A stretch of 64,000 bases of DNA from an uncultured Gammaproteobacteria bacterium (GTDB lineage Bacteria > Patescibacteriota > Patescibacteriia > Buchananbacterales > UBA6539). Numbering within the stretch: the first letter of the stretch is position 1; the number at the start of each line of letters is the position of its first letter. The DNA lies in assembly GCA_964497245.1 (NCBI GenBank), contig CAZCCC010000001.1, positions 10,297-74,296 on the forward strand. The letters are read 5' to 3'. The notes under the pieces are model-generated. The model saw only the letters and a program-made list of their open reading frames with translations, ran no database searches and was not told where the DNA came from. This document shows, one piece after another, positions 13,814 through 34,447 of the stretch. A program made the translations under genes and the position numbers.

Positions 13814-13818
13814 ATAAT

Positions 13819-14187: not shown

Positions 14188-14204
14188 TCATTATTTTATA
14201 ATTA

Positions 14205-14227
14205 AAAAGGTCTTATTTAAGCCTTTT
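14205..14227 (+). terminator. Weak A/T-rich hairpin after gtrA-like gene
   Basis: aaaagg-tcttatttaag-cctttt followed by ata; low-energy stem. Confidence 0.25.
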
Positions 14228-14249
14228 ATATTAAATTAATTGATACCTA

Positions 14250-14279
14250 TTGACATCTTTTGACACCTTTTGGTATAAT
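14250..14279 (+). promoter_or_regulatory. Near-consensus sigma70-type promoter with duplicated -35-like box
   Basis: TTGACA (14250-14255), second TTGACA (14260-14265), TATAAT (14274-14279). The first box sits 18 bp upstream of the -10. Direct repeat ttgacaYcttt x2. The HTH gene starts 37 nt downstream. Confidence 0.5.
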
Positions 14280-14315
14280 TGTTAATGTTTAATTCTCAAA
14301 ATATAAATTAACAAT

Positions 14316-14561
14316 ATGCCTGAAATAAATCCAAATGAAGTATATACTTCAAATGAAACCCAAGTGCTGCTAAAGGTTAGCTCAAGCACAATGAAGCGTC
14401 TTTTAAAAAAGGGATTAATTAGAGCCAATAAAGTTGGTGGGCAATATCGTATTTTAGGTAAAGAAATTTTACGTTTAATTTCGCCGGAATTGGAGCAAAA
14501 AGCAGTTGATGTTTATCAGGCAATAAAGAAAAACGCAGTTGATAAGATTAATAAGTGGTAA
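14316..14561 (+). CDS. Excisionase/MerR-like helix-turn-helix DNA-binding protein (HTH_17 type)
   Basis: 81 aa; VYTSNETQVLLKVSSSTMKRLLKKGLIRANKVGGQYRI matches the excisionase-family HTH pattern (ellgvs..tvyrlikkGelpa.kiGr.wri). Confidence 0.55.
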   Translation: MPEINPNEVYTSNETQVLLKVSSSTMKRLLKKGLIRANKVGGQYRILGKEILRLISPELEQKAVDVYQAIKKNAVDKINKW

Positions 14562-15331: not shown

Positions 15332-15334
15332 GAT

Positions 15335-17492: not shown

Positions 17493-17494
17493 CT

Positions 17495-18889: not shown

Positions 18890-18890
18890 T

Positions 18891-19847: not shown

Positions 19848-19852
19848 AGTAT

Positions 19853-20938: not shown

Positions 20939-20943
20939 AAAAT

Positions 20944-22107: not shown

Positions 22108-22113
22108 CGTTTT

Positions 22114-22839
22114 ATGAAAAAAAGATTAAATATTTTAGGCATAATTCCGGCCCGCGGTGGATCCAAGGGGATACCTAAGAAAAATATAAAAATTTTAGGT
22201 GATAAGCCGTTGATTTATTATACGATTAAAAGCGCAAAAAGAAGCGTTTATATAACTGACCTGATTGTGTCTACTGACGACTTGGAGATCGCAAAAATAG
22301 CTGAATCCTGCGGCGCTAATGTTCCTTTTATTCGGCCGAAGGAATTGGCTTTGAATGAAACTCCAATGCTTCCTGTTTTAAGGCATGCGGTTGATTTTAT
22401 GGAAAAAAACAAAAATATTATTTTTGATTATATAGTAATCCTGCAACCGACATCACCTTTTAGACTGCCGGAAGATATAGATAAAACAATAGAAGTAATT
22501 ATTGAAAAAGGCGCCGATAGTGCTGTCAGTCTGGTGGAAGTGGAAAGCCAGTTTCATCCAATGAAAATGAAAAAGTTCGAGGAGCAGAGGGTATTGTCTT
22601 ATACTATTGATGAGCCGGAAGGAATAAATCGTCAGGATTTGCCAAAGGTATATAGGCGAAGCAGTGCAGTTTATGTTCAAAAACGAGATTTGATCGTTAA
22701 AAAGAATCAGTTATATGGTGATTATATTGTCGGACATATTGTGCCGGCAGAAAGATATATTGATATTGATAATGAATTTGATTGGTTAAAGGCAGAATAT
22801 ATGTTAAAAAAATTAAAAGATAGAGGATATAATTATTAA
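22114..22839 (+). CDS. neuA: N-acylneuraminate cytidylyltransferase (CMP-sialic acid synthetase)
   Basis: 241 aa; LGIIPARGGSKGIPKKNIKILGDKPLIYYTI (cf. AIIPARSGSKGLPRKN), CTP_transf_3 family. Confidence 0.8.
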   Translation: MKKRLNILGIIPARGGSKGIPKKNIKILGDKPLIYYTIKSAKRSVYITDLIVSTDDLEIAKIAESCGANVPFIRPKELALNETPMLPVLRHAVDFMEKNKNIIFDYIVILQPTSPFRLPEDIDKTIEVIIEKGADSAVSLVEVESQFHPMKMKKFEEQRVLSYTIDEPEGINRQDLPKVYRRSSAVYVQKRDLIVKKNQLYGDYIVGHIVPAERYIDIDNEFDWLKAEYMLKKLKDRGYNY

Positions 22840-22853
22840 GTAATAAAATTAAT

Positions 22854-23708
22854 ATGGAAGAAAAAAAATTGTCAGATTTTAATTTTGATTTTGAAGCTTT
22901 AGTGAGTTGCCCTTTTTGCAGTAGCCAAGTTATGATACCTAATGGCAGGGTAAAATGGTATAGTTTTGACTTCTGGTATGTTTTTTGTCCATCTTGCGGA
23001 TTAAAATATATGAATCCAAGACCGACAATCCAATCGTATAAAGATTTCTATAAAAAATTTTTTTGGGAACAGAAAATAACCAATACCGGTTTTCATCAAG
23101 AGGGTCAGATGTGGGGGCTTGATAAATATAAATTTGATAATGAAAAAATTTGGGATGCAAAAGATGGAAAAAAAAATCGGATTGAAAAGCAAAAAGCGCA
23201 AAGAATAAAAACTATAATCCCGGTGATTGAAAAAAGTATTAGTATCAACAGCAATTCAGATATTCTTGAAATTGGTTGCGGTTTTGGAGTCACTTTGAAC
23301 GAATTAAGTTTGAAATATAATTGTAAATCTTACGGAATTGAGCCGTCGGAAGAAGCCAGAAAAACTATTTTAGAATATGGCAAGATTAATTTGATTGGCT
23401 ATTATGCTGAGGAAATTGAAGAAATATCAACAAAAGATATAAAGTTTGATGTTATTATATTTTCTCATTCTTTGGAAAATACTGTTGACCCGATAAACAT
23501 AATAAAATACGCAAAATTGTGTTTAAAGAATTCAGGGATCATTTATATTCAAACTCCAAATTTATTGACTTTTGATCAAATGAACCCTTATCATCCTTTC
23601 ATTTTCTCGCAGAATTCTGTTTTGCATTTGGCTGAAAAAAACAATTTAAATTGCAGTATTGAATCTGAGACTATAGATAAAATGTTAGTAACAGTTTTTA
23701 AGAATTAA
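22854..23708 (+). CDS. SAM-dependent methyltransferase with N-terminal Cys4 zinc ribbon
   Basis: 284 aa; CPFCSS...CPSCG zinc ribbon; motif I ILEIGCGFGVTLNELS. Confidence 0.55.
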   Translation: MEEKKLSDFNFDFEALVSCPFCSSQVMIPNGRVKWYSFDFWYVFCPSCGLKYMNPRPTIQSYKDFYKKFFWEQKITNTGFHQEGQMWGLDKYKFDNEKIWDAKDGKKNRIEKQKAQRIKTIIPVIEKSISINSNSDILEIGCGFGVTLNELSLKYNCKSYGIEPSEEARKTILEYGKINLIGYYAEEIEEISTKDIKFDVIIFSHSLENTVDPINIIKYAKLCLKNSGIIYIQTPNLLTFDQMNPYHPFIFSQNSVLHLAEKNNLNCSIESETIDKMLVTVFKN

Positions 23709-23737
23709 TTTTTGGTTTTTAGTATTTTAAAAGAAAT

Positions 23738-24421
23738 ATGAGGACAATAAAAATAGGTAAAATAGATGAACAAATCAAAAGTTTATATGATTTTTTTAAA
23801 TTAAAAGAAGGTTCTGAACACATATCTTGCCTCGGTGCTCTACAGGGATTAAATAAAATACTTCAGGATTTAAAACCAAAAAATATTCTTGAGTTTGGTG
23901 GTGGAATAGGGGCATTAAGTTACTTTTGTATGAATAATACAAATGCAAATCTTACTATATATGAAGATAATAGTTTTTGTCTAAATCAGCTTGAAAAAAA
24001 TTTAAGCGCTTTTAAAGAAAGGTATTCAATAATTTCAGATTATAATAATTTTAAGCCACTTCCTTATAAAAATTACGAATTAATTTTGGCGGATGGAGGA
24101 CCATATAATTTAATTAGTGAAATAGTAAAAAATATTAGAGGAATTAGAATAATATTTTTTGAGGGTAGAAGAATACCAATGCAAGTACTTTTTAGAAAAG
24201 CATTGAAGAAAAAATATATATTCAAAACTATAAAATATGAGTATGAAAATAATAACAAAAATACTAAGTGTGCTTATGTTATTTATTGTCAGCCGTGTAA
24301 AAATGTTTTTTTAAGAAAAATAAATTATTATTATCAAGAAATTATTTCATTGATTGATTTTATCAGGATAAGGGGATTTATGAATTATATTAAGTATGAT
24401 TTTTTATCCAAAATTTTATAA
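23738..24421 (+). CDS. Hypothetical protein, possible class I methyltransferase fold
   Basis: 227 aa; NILEFGGGIGALSYF glycine-rich loop, later LILADGGP. Weak. Confidence 0.35.
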   Translation: MRTIKIGKIDEQIKSLYDFFKLKEGSEHISCLGALQGLNKILQDLKPKNILEFGGGIGALSYFCMNNTNANLTIYEDNSFCLNQLEKNLSAFKERYSIISDYNNFKPLPYKNYELILADGGPYNLISEIVKNIRGIRIIFFEGRRIPMQVLFRKALKKKYIFKTIKYEYENNNKNTKCAYVIYCQPCKNVFLRKINYYYQEIISLIDFIRIRGFMNYIKYDFLSKIL

Positions 24422-24445
24422 TTTTAACTAAATTGTGGTTTTTTT

Positions 24446-25708
24446 ATGGTAAAAATCTTATATAATAAAATATTAAGTATAATAAGTCGTGTTGAGAAAA
24501 TTGTAAAAGTTGATTTAATATATTATTTAAAAGGTAGTTTTTGGATGAATATGGAACAAGGAGTCTCAACTCTTACCGCTATTATTTTGTCGATTGTATT
24601 TGCTAATTTGCTTTCTAAGGAAACTTATGGGTCATATTCATATATTTTAACAATTGCCAATCTTTTGGCATTTACTACACTGACCAGTATGAATGAAGCA
24701 GTAACAAGATCAGTGGCAAAAGGAAATAATGATTCAGTAATTTCAGCTTTATATACCAAAATTAGATTTGGTTTTTTTGGCAGTATAATAAGTTTAGCGA
24801 TAGCGCTTTATTATTTTATAAACAATTCTTTAGTTTTGGCGATTTGTTTTTTATTTGTTTCATTATTTATTCCTTTTTGGCCTTCGCTCAGTATTTACTC
24901 TGCTTTTTTTAATGGGAAAAGAAATTTTGGACTCTCATCAATTATTGGTGCTGCTAGAAATATTATTACTTCCTTTTTTTTAGTTATGGTAATATTTTTT
25001 ACAAGAAATATTTTTTTGATTATTTTAACATATTTTTTATCATTTTTATTATTTGATTTTTTTTATTTAAAAAAAGTTATTAATAAATTTAAGTTGACAA
25101 ATATTCGTAATCCAGAAACAATTTCTTATGGAAAATATTTAAGTTTCGTAAGGATAATTGGTCTTATTAATAGTAATATTGATAAAATATTAATTTGGAA
25201 TCTGCTTGGTCCGGTTCAAGTGGCAGTTTATTCAATTGCACTGGCGCCAGTTGATAAAATTAAGGGTACAATTGGTAATATCAAATCATTAGCTTTCCCA
25301 AAATTCAGCTTAGCTCCACAGAATCAAATGCAGAAAACGTTAATGGGAAAAATGTTAAAGCTTTTTTTTATTTTAATTCCTGTTGTAGCGACTTATATTA
25401 TATTCATACCTTTTCTTTTTAAAATTTTTTACCCTAAATATTTAGATTCAATTATTTATTCCCAAATACTTTCACTAACTATTTTAGCTACGCCTGAACA
25501 GCTTTTTACCGTTTATTTCAAGGCGCATAAGATGAAAAAAGAAATAGTAATTATGAGCTCGGTTGTACCCTTGATAAATATACTAATAATGGTATTTGCC
25601 GGCGTATTTTTTGGTTTAATTGGTTTGGTAATTGGCAGAGTGCTAGGATTTATTTCTTATTTTCCAGTTGCTTTTTATTTGTTTAAATTTCAGAAATATA
25701 AAGATTAA
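24446..25708 (+). CDS. Oligosaccharide flippase (Wzx-like / polysaccharide biosynthesis protein, MOP superfamily)
   Basis: 420 aa, about 12 hydrophobic segments throughout, no soluble domain; the true start may be an internal Met (e.g. MNMEQG). Confidence 0.55.
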   Translation: MVKILYNKILSIISRVEKIVKVDLIYYLKGSFWMNMEQGVSTLTAIILSIVFANLLSKETYGSYSYILTIANLLAFTTLTSMNEAVTRSVAKGNNDSVISALYTKIRFGFFGSIISLAIALYYFINNSLVLAICFLFVSLFIPFWPSLSIYSAFFNGKRNFGLSSIIGAARNIITSFFLVMVIFFTRNIFLIILTYFLSFLLFDFFYLKKVINKFKLTNIRNPETISYGKYLSFVRIIGLINSNIDKILIWNLLGPVQVAVYSIALAPVDKIKGTIGNIKSLAFPKFSLAPQNQMQKTLMGKMLKLFFILIPVVATYIIFIPFLFKIFYPKYLDSIIYSQILSLTILATPEQLFTVYFKAHKMKKEIVIMSSVVPLINILIMVFAGVFFGLIGLVIGRVLGFISYFPVAFYLFKFQKYKD

Positions 25709-25718
25709 TTATTATAAA

Positions 25719-26639
25719 ATGTTTAAAAAAATAGGACCAGATTTTTTAATAACCGGGCTTGAAAGAAGTGGCACTCACTGGGTTGCCGGTTTACTGAATG
25801 CGCATCCGGAGATTTCTTGTTTTCCGGCCGATTATTTTGATAAAGGTTTTGGTGAATATAATAGAGAAATTATTGGGGAAGTCCATTTATTTAATACTTT
25901 GGCAAGTCTTGAATTGAATACCGAAGATAAGCATACCCGGCCCATATCTGGATATTTAACCAAGCATAATTTGATTTTTGCCGATTTGGCAGCGTTAGAG
26001 GGCAAGGTGCCTAAGGAAGAATTATATAATATGTTTATAAAAAGGTATAATGAGATTTGTGAAGAGAACCGCTATGGCAAAAAAATGGTTGGTGAATCAA
26101 CTCCAGCCTATGTTTTTCACTTAGATTTTATTGATTCATTTTATCCAAATATAAAAAAGCTTTGTATAATCAGAGATCCGAAGGATAAAATAGTATCTTG
26201 GCATTTTAGCAAACTAAGAAAAGGTCAGAAGACCGAGGTTGTTATTACCGATGAATTTATCAAAGAATATTGCGAGAAAACGATTAAAAAAGAATATGAA
26301 AGCCTGCTTGATTATAAAGGCAATATTTACTGTTTTACTTATGAGAGTTTGGCTGAAAATCAAAACGGGGTTTTATGTGATATCCTTTCTTATTTAGATG
26401 TTGCCATTAATGCTGATATTATTAGTCATATGATTAAAGAAGGTTCATTTAAGGAAATGACAGCTAAGGGGAATATTACTGGTGGAAGAGATAATGGACA
26501 AGAAGAGCTACAGAGTCCTTATCGTAAGGGTGTAGTTGGTGACTGGGTAAATCATATGACTAAAAAACAGGCTGAATTGGTGGATGCTATTGTTGGTGAG
26601 GTGAGAAAAATGACTTTTAATAAATATAAAATTTACTAA
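25719..26639 (+). CDS. PAPS-dependent sulfotransferase
   Basis: 306 aa from the ATG at 25719 (the ORF-track start at 25668 overlaps the flippase gene). 5'-PSB loop ITGLERSGTHW (cf. PKSGTTW); 3'-PB motif IIRDPKDKIVSWHFS (cf. RNPKDxxVS). Confidence 0.65.
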   Translation: MFKKIGPDFLITGLERSGTHWVAGLLNAHPEISCFPADYFDKGFGEYNREIIGEVHLFNTLASLELNTEDKHTRPISGYLTKHNLIFADLAALEGKVPKEELYNMFIKRYNEICEENRYGKKMVGESTPAYVFHLDFIDSFYPNIKKLCIIRDPKDKIVSWHFSKLRKGQKTEVVITDEFIKEYCEKTIKKEYESLLDYKGNIYCFTYESLAENQNGVLCDILSYLDVAINADIISHMIKEGSFKEMTAKGNITGGRDNGQEELQSPYRKGVVGDWVNHMTKKQAELVDAIVGEVRKMTFNKYKIY

Positions 26640-26647: not shown

Positions 26648-29437
26648 ATGTTCAAGAAAAATATTAAGATTATTGTTACCTTGGGTCCGTCAACTAAAAC
26701 CATATCAGATTTAAGAAAAATTAAAGATAGGGGCGTAAGTTTTGTTCGTATTAATATGTCGCATTCCAGTATTGATGATCTTAAATATTTTATTAATTTG
26801 GCAAAAACTGTTGATATCCCATTTATTATTGACACTGAAGGTTCTCAAATCAGGACAGGTGATCTAATTGAAAGCAGTATTAATCTGAATGAGAATGACG
26901 AGATAAAGATATATAAAGAGCAAATAGTTGGTGATATCCACAAAATATCAATTAAGCCAAGTTATGTAATAGACCAACTTAAAATTGGTGATATATTGTA
27001 TGTAGATTTTAATGCTTTAATTTTAGAAATTTCAGATATTTCAACTATTTCTGTAGGCTATATTACGGCCAAGGCTATCAATAAAGGCAGTCTGGGACGA
27101 AATAAAGGCGTAGCAATAGATTCATCTGATAATACTAAGTTTGATTTGCCAGTTCTGTCGGAAAAAGATTATCAATCAATCAAGGTAGGTTTAGAAGAGG
27201 GTATTAGTCATATTGCGGCATCATTTATGAGATCTGAGCAGTTTGTTAAAGATGTTAAGATGGCTACGAAAGGCAAGATGAAAATTATTTCAAAAATTGA
27301 GTGCCTTGATGCACTAAATAATTTAGATGAGATTATTAAAGAGTCTGATTTTTTGTTAATTGACAGAGGAGATTTAAGTAAAGAAATTCCAATAGAAAAA
27401 ATTCCATTTTTACAAAAAATAATTCTAAGCAAATCTCGTAATTATAATAAGGAAACTTTTATTGCAACTAATTTATTAGAGACCATGGTTGAAAAGAGTA
27501 ATCCAACCAGAGCGGAAGTTAATGATGTAATTAATGCTATTTTAGATGGTGCTTCTGGTTTAACCCTTTCATCTGAAACAGCAATAGGTAAATATCCAAT
27601 AGCCTGTATTAATATGCTAAATAAATTGATCAAGCAAACAACCTTATTTAATGATATAACTTATCAAAAATCCGGTGATCGGTTAGCTAAAAAGTTATTT
27701 AAGTCAAATTATTTTTTAAGTACAGATTCATCATCTTCTCTAATTTCTCCTCACGGCGGCACCTTAATAAATAGGATTTCTGATGGATCGTTTAGTAAGC
27801 AATATTTAGATTCTTTAAAAAAAATTGTAGTAAGTCAAAATATTTCAATGGATATTGAGCAGATAGCAGTTGGTACTTTTAGCCCCCTGGAAGGTTTTAT
27901 GATAAAACGTGATTTTAATAGTGTTCTCAATAAAATGAGACTTGTAAACGGAGCAGTATGGACAATTCCCATAGTTTTGGATGTCTCAAAAGAACATGCT
28001 GACAATATATCTTTAGGTGAAGATATTATGCTAATTGGTGATGGCGGCTTGATAGCATTAATCAATGTAGAGGATAAATACTCATTTAATAAAAAAGAAG
28101 TTTCTTTAAAACTTTATGGTACTACTAGTAATAAACATCCCGGTGTTTTGTGGGTGAATAGCCTAGATCAAATATTACTGGGAGGGAAAATTACTCTTCT
28201 CAAAAGAAGAGAATCAGAGTTTCAGGAATATATTCTGACTCCCAGACAAACAAGAAGGTTGTTTGAAGAAAAAAATTGGTCTAGGGTTGTGGGATTTCAT
28301 ACTAGAAATGTTATTCACCGCAGTCATGAATTTATTCAAATGAAAGCTTTGGAGGTTGAAAATTGTGATGGGCTTTTTGTTCATCCAGTAATTGGCAAAA
28401 AGAAGCCTGGTGATTTTTATGCCAAATACATTATTGAAAGTTATAAGCTTATGGTTAAAAATTTTTACCCAGCCGATAAGGTATTCTTTGCCACTTTGCC
28501 GACTTATTCTAGATATGCCGGTCCCAGAGAAGCAGTTTTTACCGCTTTGTGCCGCAAGAACTTCGGTTGCAGCCATTTTATTGTTGGTCGTGACCACACT
28601 GGAGTTGGTAATTTTTACAATCCTACGGCGTCTCATGATATTTTTGATAAATTTCCTGATTTAGGCATGAAAATAATTAAATTTAATAAGATATTTTACT
28701 CAAAAAAATATGACGGTTATATTCATGAGACTGAGGATTCTGATCATTTGGAAGAAGATAAGCTTCATATAAGCGGCACAGAAGCTAGAAAAATGTTTGA
28801 GGAAGGGGATATTCCGCCATGCTGGTTTATGCGTCCGGAAATATCACAATTTATTTCAAATGCAATTTGCAACAAAGAAGAAGTTTTTATTAAAAAAGAG
28901 TCAGTTGAAAAAGGAATAGTTCTTTGGTTTACTGGTTTAAGTGGCTCAGGAAAAACCACGATTGCCGGTGAATTAGAAAATCGATTAAAAACTCTTAGAA
29001 AGAAAGTTGTGATAATTGATGGCGATACCGTAAGGTCTACAATTAATAAAAATCTTGGTTTTTCCCGAGAAGACATAAAAGAAAATAATTTAATAATTGC
29101 AAAATTAGCTGAGGAAGCAGCTTTTAAAAATGATTTTGTGGTTGTACCAATTATTTCTCCTTACCAAGAAGATAGAAACATGGCTCGCTCATTAATTGGC
29201 TCTCGATTTTTTGAAATTTTTATAAATTGTTCTATTGATAAATGTATTAAAAGAGATCCCAAGGGTTTTTATAAGAAAGCTTTAGAAGGAAAAATCAATA
29301 ATTTTATAGGGCTTAGTAAAAGTAATCCGTATGAGATTCCAATAAATCCGGATTTAGAAATAAAAACTGATATTCATAGTCTTGATGAAAATATTCTTTT
29401 AATTTTAGATTTTTTAAAATCTAAGGCCTTATTGTAA
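26648..29437 (+). CDS. Tri-domain protein: pyruvate-kinase-like catalytic (A+B) domains, ATP sulfurylase, and APS kinase (PAPS synthase with an N-terminal PK module)
   Basis: 929 aa. Residues 1-340 align along their whole length with pyruvate kinase: KIIVTLGP, VRINMSHSS, IIDTEGSQIRTG, IISKIECLDAL...LLIDRGDLSKEIP, ATNLLETMVEKSNPTRAEVNDVINAILDGASGLTLSSETAIGKYP. Residues about 360-750 are ATP sulfurylase: LISPHGGTLINRI, GFHTRNVIHRSHEF, VGRDHTGVG. Residues about 760-929 are APS kinase: LWFTGLSGSGKTTIA, CIKRDPKGFYKKALEGKINNFIGLSKSNPYE. Confidence 0.8.
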   Translation: MFKKNIKIIVTLGPSTKTISDLRKIKDRGVSFVRINMSHSSIDDLKYFINLAKTVDIPFIIDTEGSQIRTGDLIESSINLNENDEIKIYKEQIVGDIHKISIKPSYVIDQLKIGDILYVDFNALILEISDISTISVGYITAKAINKGSLGRNKGVAIDSSDNTKFDLPVLSEKDYQSIKVGLEEGISHIAASFMRSEQFVKDVKMATKGKMKIISKIECLDALNNLDEIIKESDFLLIDRGDLSKEIPIEKIPFLQKIILSKSRNYNKETFIATNLLETMVEKSNPTRAEVNDVINAILDGASGLTLSSETAIGKYPIACINMLNKLIKQTTLFNDITYQKSGDRLAKKLFKSNYFLSTDSSSSLISPHGGTLINRISDGSFSKQYLDSLKKIVVSQNISMDIEQIAVGTFSPLEGFMIKRDFNSVLNKMRLVNGAVWTIPIVLDVSKEHADNISLGEDIMLIGDGGLIALINVEDKYSFNKKEVSLKLYGTTSNKHPGVLWVNSLDQILLGGKITLLKRRESEFQEYILTPRQTRRLFEEKNWSRVVGFHTRNVIHRSHEFIQMKALEVENCDGLFVHPVIGKKKPGDFYAKYIIESYKLMVKNFYPADKVFFATLPTYSRYAGPREAVFTALCRKNFGCSHFIVGRDHTGVGNFYNPTASHDIFDKFPDLGMKIIKFNKIFYSKKYDGYIHETEDSDHLEEDKLHISGTEARKMFEEGDIPPCWFMRPEISQFISNAICNKEEVFIKKESVEKGIVLWFTGLSGSGKTTIAGELENRLKTLRKKVVIIDGDTVRSTINKNLGFSREDIKENNLIIAKLAEEAAFKNDFVVVPIISPYQEDRNMARSLIGSRFFEIFINCSIDKCIKRDPKGFYKKALEGKINNFIGLSKSNPYEIPINPDLEIKTDIHSLDENILLILDFLKSKALL

Positions 29438-29448: not shown

Positions 29449-30252
29449 ATGCCAAAATTTTCTCCAGAAATTTTAATAGCAATAAAAGCGGCTATAAAGG
29501 CTTCAGTAGAAATAAAAAAAATATATAGTAAAGATTTTTTATTGCAGTTTCGGGATGGCAATCCAGTTTCCGAGGCTGATACAGTAAGCAATAAAATAAT
29601 AAAGAAATTTTTAAGTAAAACGGAAATCGACATTTTTTCAGAAGAAGATTTAGACAATTTTAGCCGTTTATCAAAAAGGAAAATTTGGATTATTGATCCG
29701 TTAGATGGTACTTTAGATTTTATTAATAGGACTGGAGAATTTTCTATTATTATTGGACTTGTCGAAAATAAAATTTCTGTTGGCGGAGTAATATATAAGC
29801 CAATTGGTGATACATTATATGTGGCAGAAAAAAATAAAGGAGCTTATCGGTGTAAAGATAAGATTTGGGATAAGATATCTGTCAGTTCAATCTCTGAGTT
29901 AGTAGAAGCAAGGGTGGTAATGAGCAGACATCACTTGTCAACAGAGGATAAAGAATTTTTAAGTCACTTGAAAATTAATAATTATATACAATGCGGGAGC
30001 TGTGGGTTAAAAGCTGCATCAATAGCTGAAGGAAAGGCGGAATTATATTTTACAAGTACTAATAAGATAAAGCAGTGGGATACTTGTGCGGCAAGCTGTT
30101 TAATTGCAGAAGCTGGTGGAGAGATTACAGATATGTTTGGGCAATCATTAGTTTATAATATAAAAAAAAATAACCACGATAATGGCATCCTAGTGTCTAA
30201 TGGAATAATTTATCAAGAAGTAATTAACAAATTAAAAATTTTACAAAAGTAA
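29449..30252 (+). CDS. cysQ: Inositol-monophosphatase-family 3'(2'),5'-bisphosphate nucleotidase (CysQ-like PAP phosphatase)
   Basis: 267 aa; IWIIDPLDGTLDFI (W-x-x-DPLDGT) and WDTCAASCLIAEAGG (WD..A motif). Confidence 0.7.
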   Translation: MPKFSPEILIAIKAAIKASVEIKKIYSKDFLLQFRDGNPVSEADTVSNKIIKKFLSKTEIDIFSEEDLDNFSRLSKRKIWIIDPLDGTLDFINRTGEFSIIIGLVENKISVGGVIYKPIGDTLYVAEKNKGAYRCKDKIWDKISVSSISELVEARVVMSRHHLSTEDKEFLSHLKINNYIQCGSCGLKAASIAEGKAELYFTSTNKIKQWDTCAASCLIAEAGGEITDMFGQSLVYNIKKNNHDNGILVSNGIIYQEVINKLKILQK

Positions 30253-30267: not shown

Positions 30268-31656
30268 TTATTGCCCCTTCCTCGTTAAAATAGTTTTAAT
30301 AGTTTTTAGCATTATGCTCAAATCAAGCGCCAATGATCGATTTTTAATATAATATAAATCATACTGTAATTTTTCTAGTGTTTCTTCTTTAGATCCACCG
30401 TAAGCCGGCCCGGCAACTTGCGCCCAGCCGGTTAGGCCGGGTTTAACCAATAATCTTTCCTTGTAAAAGGGAATTTCTTTTTCCAGTTCTTGGACAAATT
30501 CCGGTCTTTCGGGTCTTGGTCCAATTAAGCTCATTTCATTTTTTAAAATATTAATCAGCTGGGGAATTTCGTCAATTCTGGTTTTTCTGAAAAATTTTCC
30601 AACTTTAGTTATCCTTGAATCGTTTTTTGCCGCCCATTGCGGACCGTTGACTTCGGCATTATTTATCATTGTTCGGAATTTTATTGCCAAAAAATTTTTT
30701 CCATCCTTGCCGGTTCTGATTTGTTTGAAAAATACTGGACCCTTGCTTTCAAGTTTTATTACCAAGGCAATTAATGGCCAAAATATCATAGTAACCAATA
30801 GCATAAATACTGAAAATGTAATATCAAAAAATCTTTTTAATGTATCATAATTTTTTTTGCTTTTTTCAGTCAGATTTTCTAGAAACCAAACTCGTTCAAT
30901 TGTAGCGACAGGAATTTTGCCGGTTATTTTTTCGTAAAAATTTGTAATGTCAAAAAAACCGATTTTGAGAGGCAGACATTCAAACAAGCTTTTTGCAAGA
31001 TTGTCGTTTTCACGCGGATGTATTGTTGATATGACAGTATTTATGTCGTTGTCTTGGCAAATTAACTTTAAATTTTTAAAATCATCATTTACCACCAAAC
31101 TTTCAAAATCTTTTAAAACTTCAATCCCTGGTTCAAGTATTATTTTTTTTATCCTTAATCCGAGTTGAGGCTTTCTGTTTACTTCTTTTATTATTTGTTC
31201 AACCAGATCATTGAATCCTATTATTGCAACCGCGTTAAAAGCCATAGAAGAAGTGGCTAAATCATATGTTAGTCGCCATAGGTAAATTAAAGTTCCGCTT
31301 ACTAAGATATATATGAATAAGACTCTTTGGGGCTTGATGCTAAAAATATTATTTTGTCCGATGTAAAAAAATACAATAGTTATAAGACTGCTGATTAAAA
31401 TACTTCTCATAATCCGCACTAAAAGGCTTATTTTGCTTTGACTTCTGTCTATTTCGTAAAGGTCGTCTATGTAAAAAATTATCAGCCAGACTGCAAATAC
31501 CACTGAAAAAGGCCAGAGATGTTTTTCCCAGATTTGTCCATTGAATTCATTTTGATACCTAAGTGCCAAAGTTAAAAATAAAGAAAAATAAAGGATTATT
31601 ATATCCCCAAGCAATAATAAATATTTTTTCTTTTTTACCAATGAATCATTTGCCAT
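30268..31656 (-). CDS. Polyprenyl-phosphate hexose-1-phosphate transferase (bacterial sugar transferase; WbaP/PglC-like initiating enzyme)
   Basis: 462 aa; N-terminal TM helices, C-terminal KRFFDITFSVFMLL...KQIRTGKDGKNFLAIKFRTM...DEIPQLINILKNEMSLIGPRPERPEF. Confidence 0.8.
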   Translation of the reverse strand: MANDSLVKKKKYLLLLGDIIILYFSLFLTLALRYQNEFNGQIWEKHLWPFSVVFAVWLIIFYIDDLYEIDRSQSKISLLVRIMRSILISSLITIVFFYIGQNNIFSIKPQRVLFIYILVSGTLIYLWRLTYDLATSSMAFNAVAIIGFNDLVEQIIKEVNRKPQLGLRIKKIILEPGIEVLKDFESLVVNDDFKNLKLICQDNDINTVISTIHPRENDNLAKSLFECLPLKIGFFDITNFYEKITGKIPVATIERVWFLENLTEKSKKNYDTLKRFFDITFSVFMLLVTMIFWPLIALVIKLESKGPVFFKQIRTGKDGKNFLAIKFRTMINNAEVNGPQWAAKNDSRITKVGKFFRKTRIDEIPQLINILKNEMSLIGPRPERPEFVQELEKEIPFYKERLLVKPGLTGWAQVAGPAYGGSKEETLEKLQYDLYYIKNRSLALDLSIMLKTIKTILTRKGQ

Positions 31657-31750
31657 TATGGCTGAATTATAGGATAATTATTTTTTTTAGTCAATTAAAT
31701 AGGCTTGAAGTTAAGGTTGTTTTCTGGTAGAATTAAATTGTTTTTACTTT

Positions 31751-34447
31751 ATGATTTTAGAAGAAAAAAGCCATCAAATTGGAAATTTTTTGACGCATTT
31801 TATCAAATTTGGCGTTTTTTTTATTTTGTTTTTGCCAATGGTGATGAACAGTGGATTTTTTTTCCCTTTTGTTGTCCCAAAAAATATACTTTTTAGGATT
31901 AGTGTTGAAATTATTTTTGCTTCATATCTGCTTTTGCTTTATTTTAAACCCGAATACCGTCCGAAATTGAATAATTTGATTTGGGCAGTTTTGGCATTTT
32001 TTGGATTAATTTTTATTTCAACTTTCAGCGGAATTGGCGTTTATCTAAGTTTTTGGGGAAATTATGAGAGAATGGGTGGGCTTTTTCATCATTTGCATCT
32101 TTTGGCTTATTTTTTAGTCTTAATAAGTGTTATAAAAAGAAAAGACGACTGGGATCAATTTTTTTCTTTTTCAATTTTTGTAAGCACATTGATGTCTTTT
32201 TTGGCTTATGCTCAATGGCTTGAGTTGCCTTTTTTGCTTCCTTCTTCGGGCGGAGCCAGGCTTACGGGCATGGTTGGCAATGCAACTTATCTTGCGGCTT
32301 ATCTGATATTTAATGTTTTTTTTGTCCTTTATTTTTTAATGAAGCCTGAAAAATTCAAGATAAAACTTTTTTTATACAGTTTTTTAGTTTTTGATTTATT
32401 TTTAATCCTTAGCGGAGTTTTGGCTAGAATTTATCGTTTTTCAGATTGGGGCAGCTTTAATTTTTTAAAAGCTTCAATAATCAAAGATAGTTTATATTAT
32501 CCTTGGTTTCTTTACCTTTTTTTGGCTTTTCAAATTTTAATATTTTTAACTTGGTATTTCCGTTTTAAAAAATACGCAATTTCTTGTTTGCTTTGGGTTA
32601 TTTTTATTTTTCAGGCATGGGTGATTTTAAATACCCAAACCAGGGGAGCGGTTTTAGGGCTTTTGGCTGGTTTTGCCGTTTTTTTAATTATTTTATTTTT
32701 CAGCTGCAGTAATAAGAAAAGAAAAATTTTTTATCTTTCTACTTCCGGATTAATTTTATTTTTTCAGCTTTTGGCTTTTGGCTGGGGCAGATCAATAGCT
32801 GATTTTTTGAAAGAAAGTGAGCTTAAATTTTTTAGCGATCTGGGAATAGTTTTAGCTAGGGTTTCAGGCTCTATTTCCTTAGTAGGCTTTTATTTAAGCC
32901 TGCTTGGAATTTCTATTGTTTGTATTTATTTTTTTAGAGAAAAAAGAAAAAAGATAATAGTTACTTTTTTTGTTTTTACTTTACTCTTGCTGCCAATTTT
33001 TGGAATTTTTAGTAGAAGTATCTTTTCAAAAACAGACAACCATGTTTTTGGTCGATTTCTTAATTTTTCCAATATTAAAGATAAAACCACTCAGTCGCGA
33101 TTACTTACATGGGAAGCAAGCTGGAAAGGCCTTACCGAAAGTCCCAAAACTTTTTTGATCGGTTATGGTTTGGAGAATTATTATTACATTTTTAATAAAT
33201 ATTTTCCGGTTGAAATTTATAAAAACGCTGGATCGCAAATTTGGTTTGATCGGCCTCATAACATTATTTTTGATGTTGCTTCAACTGCCGGAGTCTTGGG
33301 CCTTTGTTGCTATCTAGTTATTTTAGGTCTGGCAATTTTTAGCTTGATTAAAAATTATAAGTTAAATAAGTCAGTCCGCCGAACCTGGCTTTTTGTTTGT
33401 TTGCTTTTTGCCTATTTAATTCAGAATTTTTTTGTTTTTGATACTTTGAATACGGAAATTTTGTTTTTTTTGGTTTTAGCAATGGTTTGTTTTGAAAAAA
33501 ATCTATATATTACACGCAAGGATGACAAACAAAATTCAATCACGAAAATTTTTAGCTATATTTATCCGGTAATTTCGGTAATAATTGTAGTTGCTGGACT
33601 GATTGTTAATATTAATATAGCCAAAGCCAATATTCTTCTGGTTGAGGCGATTCATCCAATTAAGATATCAAAACACTGTTCGGAAAAAATTGATTGTTTC
33701 CGTATAGCTATTGATAAGTCAATAGTCGGCCGATTTGAAGCTCGCCAACAGCTGGGAAGTTATGTTTTATCCAGCTTGGGAAGTAACAGAATTTTAGAAA
33801 GCAAAAAAAGTGACGCGGTAAACTTTACTGCTAACGAACTCAGAAAAAGCGTTGAGGAAGAGCCGCTTAATGTTAGGCATTATCTTTTTTTGGCCGGATT
33901 TTATAATAGTACAGCCAATTTTAACAGGCAGAATCCGGCAAAAACTCTTGGTTTATTGGAAAAAGCCAAGGTTCTCAGTCCGACCAGACCTCATATATAT
34001 TATGAGATGGGCAAGGCATATTATCTTTTAGGCGATTTTGATAATTCAATAAATAGTTTTAAAGAGGCAATTGAATTGGCGCCTAATGTGATTGATGCTC
34101 ATTTAAACCTTCTTAGATCATATATAATTTTCGGACAAAGTGATTTATTTGAAGAATATTTTGAAAAAATGAAACAGGAGTTTAATTGGGAACCGAAAGC
34201 AGAAGAATACGCAATAATGGCAAGCTTATTTCAGATAAGCAAGAATTATGATAAAATGATTGAACTGCAGCTTCAGGCCGTCAAATTGGAACCCAGCTTT
34301 GAAAATTATAAGAATTTGGTGGTTTTTTATGCCTTGGCACAAAAATCAGACAAGGCTGAAGATGTTATTTCTGAAATAAAAAAAATTAGTTCGGCTGCCG
34401 CCTTGGAGCTGGAAAAAATTTTACAAGAATTAAATAATTTGAAATAA
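31751..34447 (+). CDS. O-antigen ligase/polymerase-like membrane protein (Wzy_C) with C-terminal TPR repeats
   Basis: 898 aa; about 12 TM segments in the N-terminal 600 aa; C-terminal roughly 250 aa has TPR-like periodicity (MGKAYYLLGDFDNSINSFKEAIELAPN...). Confidence 0.55.
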   Translation: MILEEKSHQIGNFLTHFIKFGVFFILFLPMVMNSGFFFPFVVPKNILFRISVEIIFASYLLLLYFKPEYRPKLNNLIWAVLAFFGLIFISTFSGIGVYLSFWGNYERMGGLFHHLHLLAYFLVLISVIKRKDDWDQFFSFSIFVSTLMSFLAYAQWLELPFLLPSSGGARLTGMVGNATYLAAYLIFNVFFVLYFLMKPEKFKIKLFLYSFLVFDLFLILSGVLARIYRFSDWGSFNFLKASIIKDSLYYPWFLYLFLAFQILIFLTWYFRFKKYAISCLLWVIFIFQAWVILNTQTRGAVLGLLAGFAVFLIILFFSCSNKKRKIFYLSTSGLILFFQLLAFGWGRSIADFLKESELKFFSDLGIVLARVSGSISLVGFYLSLLGISIVCIYFFREKRKKIIVTFFVFTLLLLPIFGIFSRSIFSKTDNHVFGRFLNFSNIKDKTTQSRLLTWEASWKGLTESPKTFLIGYGLENYYYIFNKYFPVEIYKNAGSQIWFDRPHNIIFDVASTAGVLGLCCYLVILGLAIFSLIKNYKLNKSVRRTWLFVCLLFAYLIQNFFVFDTLNTEILFFLVLAMVCFEKNLYITRKDDKQNSITKIFSYIYPVISVIIVVAGLIVNINIAKANILLVEAIHPIKISKHCSEKIDCFRIAIDKSIVGRFEARQQLGSYVLSSLGSNRILESKKSDAVNFTANELRKSVEEEPLNVRHYLFLAGFYNSTANFNRQNPAKTLGLLEKAKVLSPTRPHIYYEMGKAYYLLGDFDNSINSFKEAIELAPNVIDAHLNLLRSYIIFGQSDLFEEYFEKMKQEFNWEPKAEEYAIMASLFQISKNYDKMIELQLQAVKLEPSFENYKNLVVFYALAQKSDKAEDVISEIKKISSAAALELEKILQELNNLK

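What the first reader, a model, noticed from the sequence alone, without database searches (positions are those of the whole stretch)
26648..29437. Pyruvate kinase catalytic core fused to a bifunctional PAPS synthase (PK-Sat-CysC tri-domain protein)
The first 340 residues align along their whole length with the pyruvate kinase A and B domains. The catalytic and ligand residues are present: R-x-N in VRINMSHS, K-I-E in ISKIEC, D in DRGDL, T in NPTRAE, and the GKYP motif. The C-terminal allosteric domain is absent. Downstream follow an ATP sulfurylase domain (LISPHGG, HTRNVIHRSHE, GRDHTG) and an APS kinase domain (P-loop GLSGSGKTT, RDPKGFYKKA). APS kinase releases ADP, and pyruvate kinase converts ADP plus PEP into ATP. 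The fusion therefore looks like a built-in ATP-regenerating, ADP-recycling module. That module would pull the thermodynamically unfavourable sulfate activation forward using PEP. I am not aware of this architecture being described.
Basis: partly seen in the sequence, partly recalled or inferred. Interest (0 to 1): 0.85.

Follow-up and report, generated by a model that had tools for sequence, protein, structure and literature searches.

The report
Pyruvate-kinase-fused PAPS synthase in glycan cluster
One 929-residue protein joins a pyruvate kinase core that lacks its regulatory domain to the two enzymes that make the sulfate donor PAPS; the fusion is real, widespread in uncultured and a few cultured microbes, apparently undescribed, and most likely uses PEP to regenerate ATP for sulfation.

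Summary
ORF 26648-29437 (+) is intact and encodes PK barrel (A+B domains, no C domain), PUA_2, ATP sulfurylase and APS kinase. All PK, Sat and CysC catalytic residues are present.

It is not a one-off. Family-specific motifs occur in at least 580 species-representative genomes. These span Patescibacteria, DPANN archaea, Chloroflexota, Acidobacteriota, Planctomycetota and Bacteroidota, plus cultured rhizobia and the monobactam producer Flexibacter sp. ATCC 35103.

The core unit is PK-Sat. CysC may be fused, adjacent or absent from the locus. PK-CysC, Sat-PK, PK-Sat-CysC-CysQ and standalone PK next to cysC also occur, mostly in glycan clusters that often encode sulfotransferases and once beside an NRPS.

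The PK and Sat halves form their own clades with fixed signatures. PK reads DRGDLS/ATNLLES/DTEGxQ where canonical PKs read ARGDLG/ATQMLES/DTKGPE. Sat reads HTRN where canonical Sats read QTRN.

The best reading is a PEP-driven ATP-regenerating, ADP-removing module for PAPS synthesis. Here it would feed the adjacent sulfotransferase of a nonulosonic-acid surface glycan, with CysQ clearing PAP.

I found no paper describing it. I rate it a new variant of a known kind; activity and coupling are untested.

The parts
26648..29437 (+). Whole gene: PK(A+B)-linker-PUA_2-Sat-CysC, 929 aa
   Evidence: AF2 model has mean pLDDT 91.0 and pTM 0.79.
26648..27652 (+). Pyruvate kinase core, residues 1-335. TIM-barrel A domain with the B-domain lid inserted at about residues 71-166. 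No C-terminal allosteric domain.
   Evidence: PF00224 E 1.9e-71. PDB 2e28 E 3e-54 and PykF. Foldseek superposition on PykF 2.4-2.9 A over 345 columns. Catalytic residues invariant.
27653..27742 (+). Linker, residues 336-365. Poorly conserved, with a predicted helix at 336-352.
   Evidence: Conservation profile; DSSP of the model.
27743..28207 (+). PUA-like N-terminal domain of ATP sulfurylase, residues 366-520.
   Evidence: PF14306 E 2.7e-43.
28226..28858 (+). ATP sulfurylase catalytic domain, residues 527-737. Motifs: F-H551-T-R-N (canonical QTRN), H557xxH560, GRDHTG 647-652.
   Evidence: PF01747 E 2.3e-76. TIGR00339 359.5 bits, above its cut-off of 322.95. PDB 2gks E 2e-105 and 8a8d E 1e-97. 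H551 is H in 120/120 relatives.
28910..29434 (+). APS kinase domain, residues 755-929. P-loop GLSGSGKTT 763-771, DGD 791-793, ISP 836-838, KGFYKKA 872-878.
   Evidence: PF01583 E 3.1e-49. TIGR00455 174 bits, above its cut-off of 138.7. Residue counts.
25668..26639 (+). Sulfotransferase, the likely consumer of the PAPS. The listed TTG start overlaps the flippase gene by 41 nt; the true start is probably the internal ATG about 17 codons downstream.
   Evidence: PF00685 E 1.1e-22 and PF13469. Sulfotransferases recur next to the fusion in other loci.
29449..30252 (+). CysQ-like 3'(2'),5'-bisphosphate nucleotidase. It would remove PAP, the inhibitory product of sulfotransfer.
   Evidence: PF00459 E 9e-48. 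Best NCBIfam hit is TIGR01331 CysQ, 171 bits, below its cut-off of 228.8. Found in 17 of 80 loci and fused to the module in L017, L006, L036 and L072.
941..25708 (+). Upstream part of the same co-directional surface-glycan cluster: UDP-sugar dehydrogenase, GT4 and GT2 transferases, Asn-synthase-like protein, deacetylases, NeuB/2-epimerase/CMP-transferase (nonulosonic acid pathway), methyltransferases, flippase.
30268..34447 (.). Priming sugar transferase (Bac_transf, minus strand, 30268-31656) and a Wzy_C/O-antigen-ligase-like protein with TPR repeats (31751-34447, plus strand). These are the assembly end of the glycan pathway.
   Evidence: The same pair flanks the PK-CysC gene in L083.

Best explanation
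**What it is.** The gene encodes a self-contained PAPS generator with its own PEP-driven ATP regeneration.

**Reaction scheme.**
- Sat makes APS and PPi from ATP and sulfate.
- CysC phosphorylates APS with a second ATP, giving PAPS and ADP.
- The N-terminal PK core, which has no allosteric C domain and so would be unregulated by the usual effectors, converts that ADP plus PEP back to ATP.

**What this would achieve.**
- It keeps local ATP high and ADP low.
- It removes the ADP that locks APS kinase in the E-ADP-APS dead-end complex.
- It adds the free energy of PEP hydrolysis to an otherwise very unfavourable sulfate activation.

**Role in this window.** The PAPS is used by the sulfotransferase encoded immediately upstream to sulfate a nonulosonic-acid-containing surface glycan. 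The CysQ-like enzyme encoded immediately downstream hydrolyses the inhibitory by-product PAP to AMP.

**Shown:** architecture, intact catalytic residues in all three enzymes, family-wide conservation, and recurrent genomic and fusion linkage of this PK clade with Sat, CysC, CysQ and sulfotransferases.

**Inferred:** that the PK domain is catalytically active with ADP and PEP, that it acts on ADP from CysC (or from adenylate kinase acting on the AMP that CysQ releases), and that proximity matters kinetically.
For: **Architecture and residues.**
- Domain architecture and E-values.
- Every PK catalytic or ligand residue is invariant across 120 relatives, and the B-domain lid with R69 and K153 is present.
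- Sat and CysC motifs are conserved.

**Structure.**
- Confident model, pLDDT 91 and pTM 0.79.
- The PK and Sat halves superimpose on solved enzymes at 2.2-2.9 A.

**Distribution.**
- Present in at least 580 species genomes.
- About 100 of the top 150 representatives at 50% identity are PK-Sat forms, with identity down to 33%. This indicates long-term selection for the fusion.

**Rosetta-stone variants.**
- PK-Sat-CysC in 25 of 80 loci; PK-Sat with cysC elsewhere in the locus in 29 of 80.
- A PK-Sat-CysC-CysQ tetra-fusion in L017.
- PK-CysC fusions without Sat, in sulfotransferase clusters.
- A standalone PK of the same clade directly upstream of cysC and a (faint-scoring) sulfotransferase-like gene.
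- A reversed Sat-PK.

**Neighbourhood.** The commonest recognised neighbour families are sulfotransferases, APS kinase, CysQ-type phosphatases, methyltransferases and glycan-synthesis enzymes.

**Published biochemistry.** Human PAPSS1 makes almost no PAPS in vitro unless PK and PEP regenerate ATP, because of the E-ADP-APS dead-end complex (PMC9885120).

**Dedicated copy.** The fusion occurs in large genomes (contigs of 5.8 and 10.4 Mb, a 3.8-Mb chromosome) and on rhizobial replicons of 2.6-2.8 Mb. I expect these organisms to have a housekeeping PK (inference), so the fused copy looks like a dedicated extra.
Against: - No enzymatic data exist for any member.
- The commonest form is PK-Sat, and Sat itself produces no ADP.
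- In 26 of 80 loci no cysC lies in the DNA held, so cis coupling to CysC is not universal.
- The PK clade carries fixed departures from canonical PK next to the active site: D239 for A292, S244 for G297, N275 for Q328, E64 for K114, and Q67 for the K+-dependence residue E117.
- It scores below the TIGR01064 equivalog cut-off (291.5 against 306.4).
- The Sat partner has H551 in place of the sulfate-binding Gln in nearly all PK-linked members (61 of 63), against 28 Q to 13 H in unlinked ones. This hints at co-adapted chemistry that the simple model does not explain.
- Inter-domain geometry could not be inspected, because the tool returns no coordinates or PAE.
Confidence: 0.6

Rival explanations
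1. The PK-like domain is catalytically active but has diverged in specificity. It would carry out a related PEP-dependent (or ATP-dependent) phosphotransfer on a different acceptor, or with a different cation requirement, co-evolved with the H-type Sat. Examples: another nucleotide of the PAPS cycle, or direct hand-over of nascent ATP to Sat.
For: - Family-fixed substitutions flank the catalytic residues: DRGD.S in 86 of 92 representatives with the motif; N275 in 120/120; E64/Q67 at the K+ site.
- Tight covariation with Sat H551 and T651.
- PK-Sat is the core unit even where no cysC is nearby.
- The score is below the PK equivalog cut-off.
Against: - All residues that bind PEP, Mg2+ and the nucleotide phosphates are unchanged.
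- Residues other than E or K at position 117 are compatible with normal PK activity in archaeal enzymes (PMC4374775).
- PK-CysC fusions fit ordinary ADP recycling.
- No plausible alternative acceptor is known for this fold.
Confidence: 0.17
2. The PK core serves mainly as a structural or regulatory module. It could be an oligomerisation scaffold or a PEP/energy-status sensor that gates Sat, analogous to the catalytically dead APS-kinase-like domain of fungal ATP sulfurylase. ATP regeneration would not be its purpose.
For: - There is precedent for degenerate domains in this pathway: the P. chrysogenum regulatory APSK-like domain (PMC13213808).
- Degenerate Sat-like domains are fused to an active CysC next to PK-Sat in L040, L046, L047 and L054 (compare PDB 3cr8).
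- Losing the PK C domain removes the usual tetramer interface.
- A pTM of 0.79 suggests fixed docking of the domains.
Against: - A purely structural domain would not keep every catalytic residue invariant down to 33% identity.
- The mobile B-domain lid is retained.
Confidence: 0.12
3. The fused PK is simply the organism's housekeeping glycolytic pyruvate kinase. In reduced CPR/DPANN genomes it would have become joined to a neighbouring gene, with no functional coupling to sulfation.
For: - Many hosts are small-genome Patescibacteria or DPANN archaea.
- I could not check whether these genomes carry a second PK.
Against: - The same clade occurs in large genomes and in rhizobia.
- It is found in sulfation clusters in several independent arrangements.
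- It forms a clade separate from canonical PKs: no C-domain-bearing PK appears among the best 150 of 1.84 billion representatives.
Confidence: 0.06

Closest known systems
Bifunctional Sat-CysC of Aquifex aeolicus (PDB 2gks) and related bacterial PAPS synthases
   Same: Same Sat-then-CysC order. It aligns over residues 388-927 (E 2e-105) and is the best structural match for the C-terminal two thirds.
   Different: It has no PK domain and has the canonical QTRN and GRDHAG motifs. The window protein scores 429 bits against the 669-bit equivalog cut-off of NF004040. Its Sat domain belongs to a separate H-type clade.
Trifunctional APS kinase-ATP sulfurylase-pyrophosphatase of stramenopiles (Bradley et al. 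2009, cited in PMC13213808)
   Same: The logic is the same: a PAPS-synthesis polypeptide carrying an extra enzyme that pulls the unfavourable sulfate activation by removing a product.
   Different: That accessory enzyme removes PPi, the product of Sat. This one would remove ADP, the product of CysC, and resupply ATP at the expense of PEP. The fold, domain order and lineage all differ.
Canonical pyruvate kinase (E. coli PykF, G. stearothermophilus PK, PKM)
   Same: A+B domains with all catalytic residues; about 32-35% identity; 2.4-2.9 A superposition.
   Different: It lacks the C-terminal allosteric and tetramerisation domain. It has the fixed DRGDLS/ATNLLES/DTEGxQ signature, scores below the TIGR01064 cut-off, and is fused to sulfate-activation enzymes.
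In vitro PAPS-generating cascades with PK/PEP ATP regeneration (e.g. PMC9885120)
   Same: The same set of activities (Sat, APS kinase, PK with PEP), assembled by chemists for the reason proposed here: relief of ADP/APS dead-end inhibition and ATP resupply.
   Different: These are man-made mixtures of separate enzymes and also need added pyrophosphatase. Here the set is a natural single polypeptide, and no pyrophosphatase is fused or seen next to it.
Two-domain APS kinase of Thiobacillus denitrificans (PDB 3cr8) and P. chrysogenum ATP sulfurylase (1i2d)
   Same: Both show that this pathway readily recruits extra or degenerate domains for assembly and regulation. Proteins of the 3cr8 type sit next to PK-Sat in four Chloroflexota loci.
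   Different: In those proteins the extra domain is a dead paralogue from within the pathway. Here the extra domain is an apparently active enzyme from central metabolism.

Membership tests
Pyruvate kinase (EC 2.7.1.40; PF00224, TIGR01064) | (beta/alpha)8 A domain with an inserted B-domain lid | tested here: met
   PF00224 profile 2-327/328, E 1.9e-71. Foldseek superposition on PykF 2.4-2.9 A over 345 columns.
Pyruvate kinase (EC 2.7.1.40; PF00224, TIGR01064) | Catalytic and ligand residues R72, N74, S76, D112, T113, R119, K206, K269, E271, D295, T327, E363 (rabbit numbering) | tested here: met
   R34, N36, S38, D62, T63, R69, K153, K216, E218, D242, T274 and E310 are present and conserved in 116-120 of 120 relatives.
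Pyruvate kinase (EC 2.7.1.40; PF00224, TIGR01064) | C-terminal alpha/beta domain (PK_C) carrying the allosteric site and the tetramer interface | tested here: not met
   No PK_C hit. TIGR01064 is matched only over positions 2-341 of 476.
Pyruvate kinase (EC 2.7.1.40; PF00224, TIGR01064) | Score above the curated equivalog cut-off | tested here: not met
   TIGR01064 291.5 bits against a cut-off of 306.4. All other PK models are far below their cut-offs.
Pyruvate kinase (EC 2.7.1.40; PF00224, TIGR01064) | K+-site signature: T113/K114/E117/T120 (K+-dependent) or L113/Q114/K117 (K+-independent) | tested here: not met
   The window protein has T63/E64/Q67/T70, and this is fixed in the family. The signatures are defined in PMC8835810.
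Pyruvate kinase (EC 2.7.1.40; PF00224, TIGR01064) | Catalyses PEP + ADP -> pyruvate + ATP | not testable with these tools
   Needs an enzyme assay.
Homo-oligomeric ATP sulfurylase (Sat; PF14306 + PF01747, TIGR00339) | PUA-like domain plus catalytic domain, scoring above the curated cut-offs | tested here: met
   TIGR00339 359.5 bits (cut-off 322.95) and NF003166 434.9 bits (cut-off 387). Superposition on 8a8d: rmsd 2.2 A, TMt 0.93.
Homo-oligomeric ATP sulfurylase (Sat; PF14306 + PF01747, TIGR00339) | Active-site motifs QxRN, HxxH and GRD(H)AG | tested here: inconclusive
   R553, N554, H557, H560 and GRDH are present. The motif Gln is His (H551, 120/120) and the Ala is Thr (T651). Every solved Sat shown residue by residue has Q. 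The effect on catalysis is unknown.
APS kinase (CysC; PF01583, TIGR00455) | P-loop, DGD and ISP motifs, scoring above the curated cut-off | tested here: met
   TIGR00455 174 bits (cut-off 138.7). GLSGSGKTT, DGD and ISP are conserved among the 80 CysC-bearing members of the 120 relatives.
Bifunctional Sat/CysC (NF004040, Aquifex type) | Equivalog-level similarity over both domains | tested here: not met
   429.1 bits against a cut-off of 669. The domain order is the same, but the Sat clade is distinct.
PK-linked sulfate-activation family (defined here) | C-domain-less PK with DRGDLS, ATNLLES and DTEGxQ, joined to or encoded beside an H-type Sat and/or CysC in a sulfation cluster | tested here: met
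   The window protein has all the signatures. A sulfotransferase lies upstream and a CysQ-like gene downstream.

The most novel reading that the evidence does not exclude
The PK-like clade and the H-type Sat clade have co-evolved into a PEP-driven sulfate-activating machine. Its chemistry or nucleotide handling would differ from the simple sum PK + Sat + CysC. Examples: obligatory channelling of nascent ATP into Sat, so that sulfate activation effectively runs on ADP + PEP; or a changed acceptor or cation specificity of the PK site that the fixed D239/S244/N275/E64/Q67 and Sat H551/T651 substitutions encode.
Probability: 0.12. Interest if true: 0.85.

Novelty: new variant of a known kind. Interest (0 to 1): 0.62.

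Why it matters
**Biochemistry.** Sulfate activation is one of the most thermodynamically uphill steps in metabolism. The known natural remedies are PPi hydrolysis, GTP hydrolysis (CysN) and APS phosphorylation. A natural fusion that recruits a glycolytic ATP-regenerating enzyme would add a fourth strategy. It would also be a rare case of an ATP-regeneration enzyme hard-wired to an ATP-consuming biosynthetic enzyme.

**Annotation and ecology.** The family is large and is mis-annotated as plain 'sulfate adenylyltransferase' or 'pyruvate kinase'. Metabolic reconstructions of CPR and DPANN organisms may therefore count it wrongly, as glycolytic PK or as assimilatory or dissimilatory Sat. It also marks gene clusters for sulfated surface glycans in these poorly understood episymbionts.

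**Natural products.** In Flexibacter sp. ATCC 35103 it sits beside an NRPS. That strain makes an N-sulfonated monobactam.

**Application.** A single polypeptide that makes PAPS from sulfate, catalytic ATP and PEP would be attractive for enzymatic sulfation of heparin, chondroitin or drugs.

**Testability.** Cultured hosts make the hypothesis directly testable: Flexibacter sp. ATCC 35103, Ensifer adhaerens and Sinorhizobium chiapasense.

Tried and rejected
- **Frameshift or assembly artefact:** rejected. The ORF is intact and the architecture recurs in hundreds of genomes.
- **A different TIM-barrel family:** rejected. PF00224 matches full length, PDB pyruvate kinases match at E 1e-54, and no competing family appears.
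- **Source record of the window:** not found. The look-up of encoding contigs had no record for P0001 and the cluster look-up gave no name or accession. No rRNA or other Rfam family was found in the window. The organism is inferred only as probably Patescibacteria, from the relatives.
- **A second, canonical PK in the host genomes:** not testable. Only flanks of up to 10 kb are available, and no other PK lies in the window or in any locus.
- **Inter-domain geometry and active-site distances:** not obtainable. Structure prediction returns no coordinates or PAE, so only pTM 0.79 can be quoted. The afdb50 fold library was unavailable.
- **Annotation of the rhizobial loci:** absent from the PLSDB gene tables. 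I called ORFs myself instead.
- **Literature:** ten searches with various combinations of PK, Sat, APS kinase, fusion, CPR and monobactam terms found no description of the fusion.
- **PK domain serving NeuB (a PEP consumer) or pyruvylation in the glycan cluster:** considered and rejected. The PK clade travels with Sat and CysC even in an NRPS cluster with no neuB in the 13 kb held.
- **Phage collection:** only PK-only matches of about 33% identity on short unannotated contigs. Not relevant.


Full report
**1. The observation**

The window has a single uninterrupted ORF at 26648..29437 on the + strand. It is 929 aa long, starts with ATG, and begins 8 nt after the stop of the upstream gene.

Pfam assigns four domains:
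- residues 4-320 to the pyruvate kinase barrel PF00224, covering profile positions 2-327 of 328 (E 1.9e-71)
- residues 366-520 to PUA_2
- residues 527-737 to ATP-sulfurylase
- residues 755-906 to APS_kinase

NCBIfam agrees. It shows that the PK match stops at position 341 of the 476-position TIGR01064 model, and no PK_C domain is found.

The PK part aligns end to end with solved pyruvate kinases (2e28, E 3e-54; E. coli PykF). The rest aligns with the Aquifex Sat-CysC enzyme 2gks (E 2e-105) and with the M. thermolithotrophicus and Thermus ATP sulfurylases.

All residues known to bind PEP, Mg2+, K+ and the nucleotide phosphates are present. In rabbit numbering these are R72, N74, S76, D112, T113, R119, K206, K269, E271, D295, T327 and E363.

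The catalytic Thr is T274 in IATNLLE, not the Thr of NPTRAE.

**2. It is a family, not a singleton**

- A word-indexed search of 5.8 billion proteins returned at least 120 clusters at 90% identity, all carrying PK+PUA_2+Sat. Eighty also carry CysC (about 900-950 aa) and forty do not (about 750 aa).
- The hosts include many Patescibacteria and DPANN archaea. They also include Chloroflexota, Acidobacteriota, Planctomycetota, Gemmatimonadota, Omnitrophota, Latescibacterota, Myxococcota, Bacteroidota and Alphaproteobacteria.
- An exhaustive HMMER search of 1.84 billion representatives at 50% identity gave the following among the top 150:

| Architecture | Count |
|---|---|
| PK-Sat | 94 |
| PK-Sat-CysC | 4 |
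| PK-CysC | 2 |
| Sat-PK (reversed) | 1 |
| Standalone C-domain-less PK | 4 |

- Identities to the query go down to about 33%, so the fusion is old and has been maintained.
- Sources name these proteins 'sulfate adenylyltransferase' or 'pyruvate kinase'. The reason is visible: only the Sat and APS-kinase models pass their curated cut-offs, while PK narrowly fails (291.5 against 306.4 bits).

**3. Both halves are specialised clades**

Across 120 relatives the PK catalytic residues are invariant. Several departures from canonical PK motifs are invariant too:

| Window residue | Canonical PK residue (rabbit numbering) |
|---|---|
| D239 | A292 |
| S244 | G297 |
| N275 | Q328 |
| E64 | K114 |
| Q67 | E117, which sets K+ dependence |

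- Known PKs have T113/K114/E117/T120 or L113/Q114/K117 at the K+ site (PMC8835810). Archaeal PKs with other residues at 117 are still active (PMC4374775).
- DRGD.S is found in 86 of the 92 PK-bearing representatives in which the motif could be read.
- In Sat, the Gln of the QTRN motif is His (H551, 120/120), and GRDHAG reads GRDHTG.
- Among representatives, PK-linked Sats have H in 61 cases, Q in 1 and R in 1. Sats without PK have Q in 28 and H in 13.
- A neighbour-joining tree of Sat domains splits almost cleanly into a PK-linked H-type side and a canonical Q-type side containing Sat, Sat-CysC and CysC-Sat. Two H-type sequences sit near the boundary.
- No C-domain-bearing PK appears among the best 150 hits. 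Standalone barrels with the family signature score about 300-400 bits, whereas solved canonical PKs score 188 bits or less against the PK region alone.
- These fixed, co-varying substitutions are unexplained.

**4. Genomic context**

In the window the gene lies near the end of 26 co-directional genes (941-30252). These encode:
- a UDP-sugar dehydrogenase
- GT4 and GT2 glycosyltransferases
- an Asn-synthase-like enzyme
- polysaccharide deacetylases
- a NeuB / UDP-GlcNAc 2-epimerase / CMP-transferase trio (nonulosonic acid synthesis)
- methyltransferases
- a flippase
- a sulfotransferase (25668-26639) immediately upstream of the fusion gene
- a CysQ-like PAP phosphatase (29449-30252) immediately downstream

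A Bac_transf priming transferase and a Wzy_C-TPR protein follow. The module therefore sits where a PAPS supply for a sulfated surface glycan would be expected.

Across 80 related loci:
- CysC is fused in 25, is a separate gene in the locus in 29 (often 2-30 nt downstream), and is not seen in the DNA held in 26. Several of those 26 loci are cut short by a contig end.
- A CysQ-like gene is present in 17.
- Within two genes on either side, Pfam finds sulfotransferases in 15 of 110 upstream and 14 of 126 downstream neighbours. It also finds APS kinase in 25 and Inositol_P in 10 downstream neighbours, along with methyltransferases, capsule-synthesis enzymes and glycosyltransferases.

Other fusions tie the same set of enzymes together:
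- PK-Sat-CysC-CysQ in L017
- CysC and CysQ joined in L006, L036 and L072
- CysC-sulfotransferase in L018

The arrangements without Sat are the most informative:
- PK-CysC fusions P0274 (seen on 17 contigs) and P0286 lie in sulfotransferase-containing glycan clusters with no Sat within 8 kb. The P0274 locus L083 is syntenic with the window cluster.
- The standalone PK P0295 lies directly upstream of cysC and a faint-scoring sulfotransferase-like gene.

In four Chloroflexota loci, PK-Sat sits next to a 'Sat-CysC' gene. Its Sat-like domain has lost all catalytic motifs while its kinase P-loop is intact. This resembles the T. denitrificans APS kinase 3cr8.

**5. Cultured hosts**

- tblastn against plasmids found the module on the 2.6-2.8-Mb replicons of Ensifer adhaerens CTYH.Ch1 and Sinorhizobium chiapasense S24.
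- It is a PK-Sat of 726-736 aa with all the family signatures. In S. chiapasense a separate cysC follows directly. In E. adhaerens the protein match extends through the CysC region, but my ORF calling did not resolve that gene. A Wzy_C gene lies nearby in S. chiapasense.
- In [Flexibacter] sp. ATCC 35103 a 925-aa PK-Sat-CysC (49% identical) follows a 2,442-aa NRPS ending in a thioesterase, and then a 290-aa protein.
- That 290-aa protein gives a full-length but borderline Sulfotransfer_2 match, 21 bits against a cut-off of 22.
- This strain is the described producer of the monobactam SQ 28,332 (MIBiG BGC0001672; PMC9248904). Monobactams are N-sulfonated (PMC12042044 abstract).
- That L052 is this BGC is my inference, not something I verified.

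**6. Structure**

- AlphaFold2 with a 103-sequence alignment gives mean pLDDT 91.0 and pTM 0.79. No segment is disordered, and the poorly conserved linker contains a helix at 336-352.
- A pTM this high for a three-module chain suggests a defined relative arrangement of the domains, but no PAE or coordinates are available.
- Foldseek against the PDB finds no entry spanning PK and Sat (best query-normalised TM 0.39).
- The Sat part superimposes on 8a8d at 2.2 A (TMt 0.93). The PK part superimposes on PykF at 2.4-2.9 A over 345 columns.

**7. Mechanism**

- The reactions, from established knowledge, are:
  - Sat: ATP + sulfate -> APS + PPi, which is very unfavourable.
  - CysC: APS + ATP -> PAPS + ADP.
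  - PK: ADP + PEP -> ATP + pyruvate, which is strongly favourable.
- The net reaction is sulfate + ATP + PEP -> PAPS + PPi + pyruvate.
- APS kinase is prone to an E-ADP-APS dead-end complex. In a published cascade, human PAPSS1 produced almost no PAPS unless PK and PEP removed the ADP (PMC9885120; see also PMC3734648).
- Losing the C domain would leave the PK without the usual allosteric control, which suits a dedicated helper.
- AMP released from PAP by CysQ can re-enter through adenylate kinase and PK (inference).
- PK is fused most often to Sat, sometimes to CysC, and sometimes to both. This suggests that what is selected is the presence of an ATP-regenerating, ADP-scavenging activity inside a sulfate-activation complex, rather than a strict cis hand-off from CysC. 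Sat and CysC are known to assemble in other systems (2gks, 1i2d, 3cr8).

What is shown: architecture, residue conservation, phyletic breadth, and the fusion and neighbourhood linkage. What is inferred: activity, substrates and kinetic coupling.

**8. Rivals**

- (a) *Altered specificity or chemistry.* The fixed substitutions in PK and the H-type Sat could encode it. This cannot be excluded, and it is the most novel reading that remains open.
- (b) *A structural or regulatory role.* This is hard to reconcile with invariant catalytic residues down to 33% identity.
- (c) *A housekeeping PK fused by chance in reduced genomes.* The family's presence in large genomes and rhizobia, its several independent arrangements, and its separation from canonical PKs all argue against it. 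I could not check directly for a second PK in the host genomes.

**9. Comparison with what is known, and novelty**

- The closest characterised relatives are the Aquifex-type Sat-CysC and canonical PKs.
- The closest in logic is the stramenopile APSK-ATPS-pyrophosphatase fusion, which pulls the same reaction by removing PPi.
- A 2026 paper's survey of sulfate-activation fusions lists Sat-APSK, the pyrophosphatase tri-fusion and the fungal regulatory domain, but no PK fusion (PMC13213808).
- Ten full-text searches found no description. Subscription literature is not covered.
- I therefore class it as a new variant of a known kind: a PAPS synthase with a previously unremarked ATP-regenerating domain. 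The window protein is an ordinary member of a large, uncharacterised and mis-annotated family.

**10. Verdict**

- The proposed function is plausible and now rests on much stronger comparative evidence. It remains untested, the claimed uniqueness is wrong, and CysC-centred cis coupling is too narrow a model.
- Interest is 0.62. A sulfur-metabolism or CPR specialist would find the family notable. It is directly testable in cultured strains and has biocatalytic appeal.

Noticed in passing
window 28298-28300 (H551) and 28598-28600 (T651); family-wide: In PK-linked ATP sulfurylases the Gln of the QTRN motif is replaced by His (120/120 close relatives; 61 of 63 PK-linked representatives). GRDHAG becomes GRDHTG. 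Ordinary Sat, Sat-CysC and CysC-Sat proteins keep Q and A. The functional meaning is unknown.
   Followed up: partly
L083 8001-9602, L086 7157-8725, L085 8001-9656: PK-CysC fusions (533 and 522 aa) without any Sat within 8 kb, and a standalone 357-aa PK barrel directly upstream of cysC. All lie in glycan clusters with sulfotransferase-like genes (clear Pfam hits in L083, faint ones in L085 and L086). L083 is syntenic with the window cluster (NeuB, 2-epimerase, CMP-transferase, sulfotransferases, Bac_transf, Wzy_C-TPR). Where APS comes from in these organisms is open.
   Followed up: partly
L017 99-3230; L006 5652-7025; L036 about 14069 onward; L072 12249-13580; L018 12254-13642: Further fusions within the PAPS cycle: PK-Sat-CysC-CysQ (more than 1043 aa; the contig starts 98 nt upstream and only the C-terminal half of the PK domain is matched), CysC-CysQ, CysQ-CysC and CysC-sulfotransferase.
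   Followed up: no
L052 818-12772 ([Flexibacter] sp. ATCC 35103, NZ_MTQF01000013.1): The PK-Sat-CysC homologue follows a PLP enzyme, a 2,442-aa NRPS (two condensation, two adenylation and two carrier domains, plus a thioesterase) and a probable divergent sulfotransferase. The strain produces the N-sulfonated monobactam SQ 28,332, so this may be the PAPS supply of that BGC (MIBiG BGC0001672). I did not verify that the locus is that BGC.
   Followed up: partly
L088 (Sinorhizobium chiapasense pA, 1401869-1404601) and L089 (Ensifer adhaerens pCTYH.Ch1_1, 774649-777380): Cultured rhizobia carry PK-Sat plus CysC on 2.6-2.8-Mb replicons. In L088 the neighbours are a Wzy_C-like gene, a Na+/H+-exchanger-family transporter, a PqqD-like gene and a nucleotidyltransferase. 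The PLSDB gene tables for these records are empty.
   Followed up: partly
L040 2828-4519, L046 14093-15787, L047 9842-11605, L054 4494-6251: In four Chloroflexota loci, PK-Sat is accompanied by a 563-587-aa protein. Its Sat-like domain has lost all catalytic motifs while its APS-kinase P-loop is intact, as in the T. denitrificans enzyme (PDB 3cr8).
   Followed up: partly
L001 952-3641: The same cluster that carries PK-Sat + CysC + CysQ also encodes a second sulfate-activation set, of the CysC + CysD (PAPS_reduct fold) + CysN (GTP_EFTU) type. One glycan cluster thus has two different sulfate-activation systems.
   Followed up: no
window 7233-8138, 11806-12966, 15335-16099, 17495-18889 (+) and 45177-47276 (-): Five sizeable ORFs (301, 386, 254, 464 and 699 aa) have no Pfam hit at E <= 1e-4. 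The first four lie inside the glycan cluster and may be novel glycan-modifying or polymerase proteins.
   Followed up: no
window 31751-36689: An 898-aa Wzy_C (O-antigen ligase/polymerase-like) protein with C-terminal TPR repeats is followed by a 746-aa subtilase with FG-GAP repeats. A similar Wzy_C-TPR protein occupies the same position in L083.
   Followed up: no
window 25668-25708: The listed TTG start of the sulfotransferase ORF overlaps the flippase gene by 41 nt. An internal Met (MFKKIGPDF..., about 17 codons in) is a more likely start.
   Followed up: no
window 1-64000: GC content is about 25-36% with persistently positive GC skew. Almost all genes are on the + strand. No tRNA, rRNA or other Rfam family reached its threshold anywhere in the 64 kb.
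   Followed up: no
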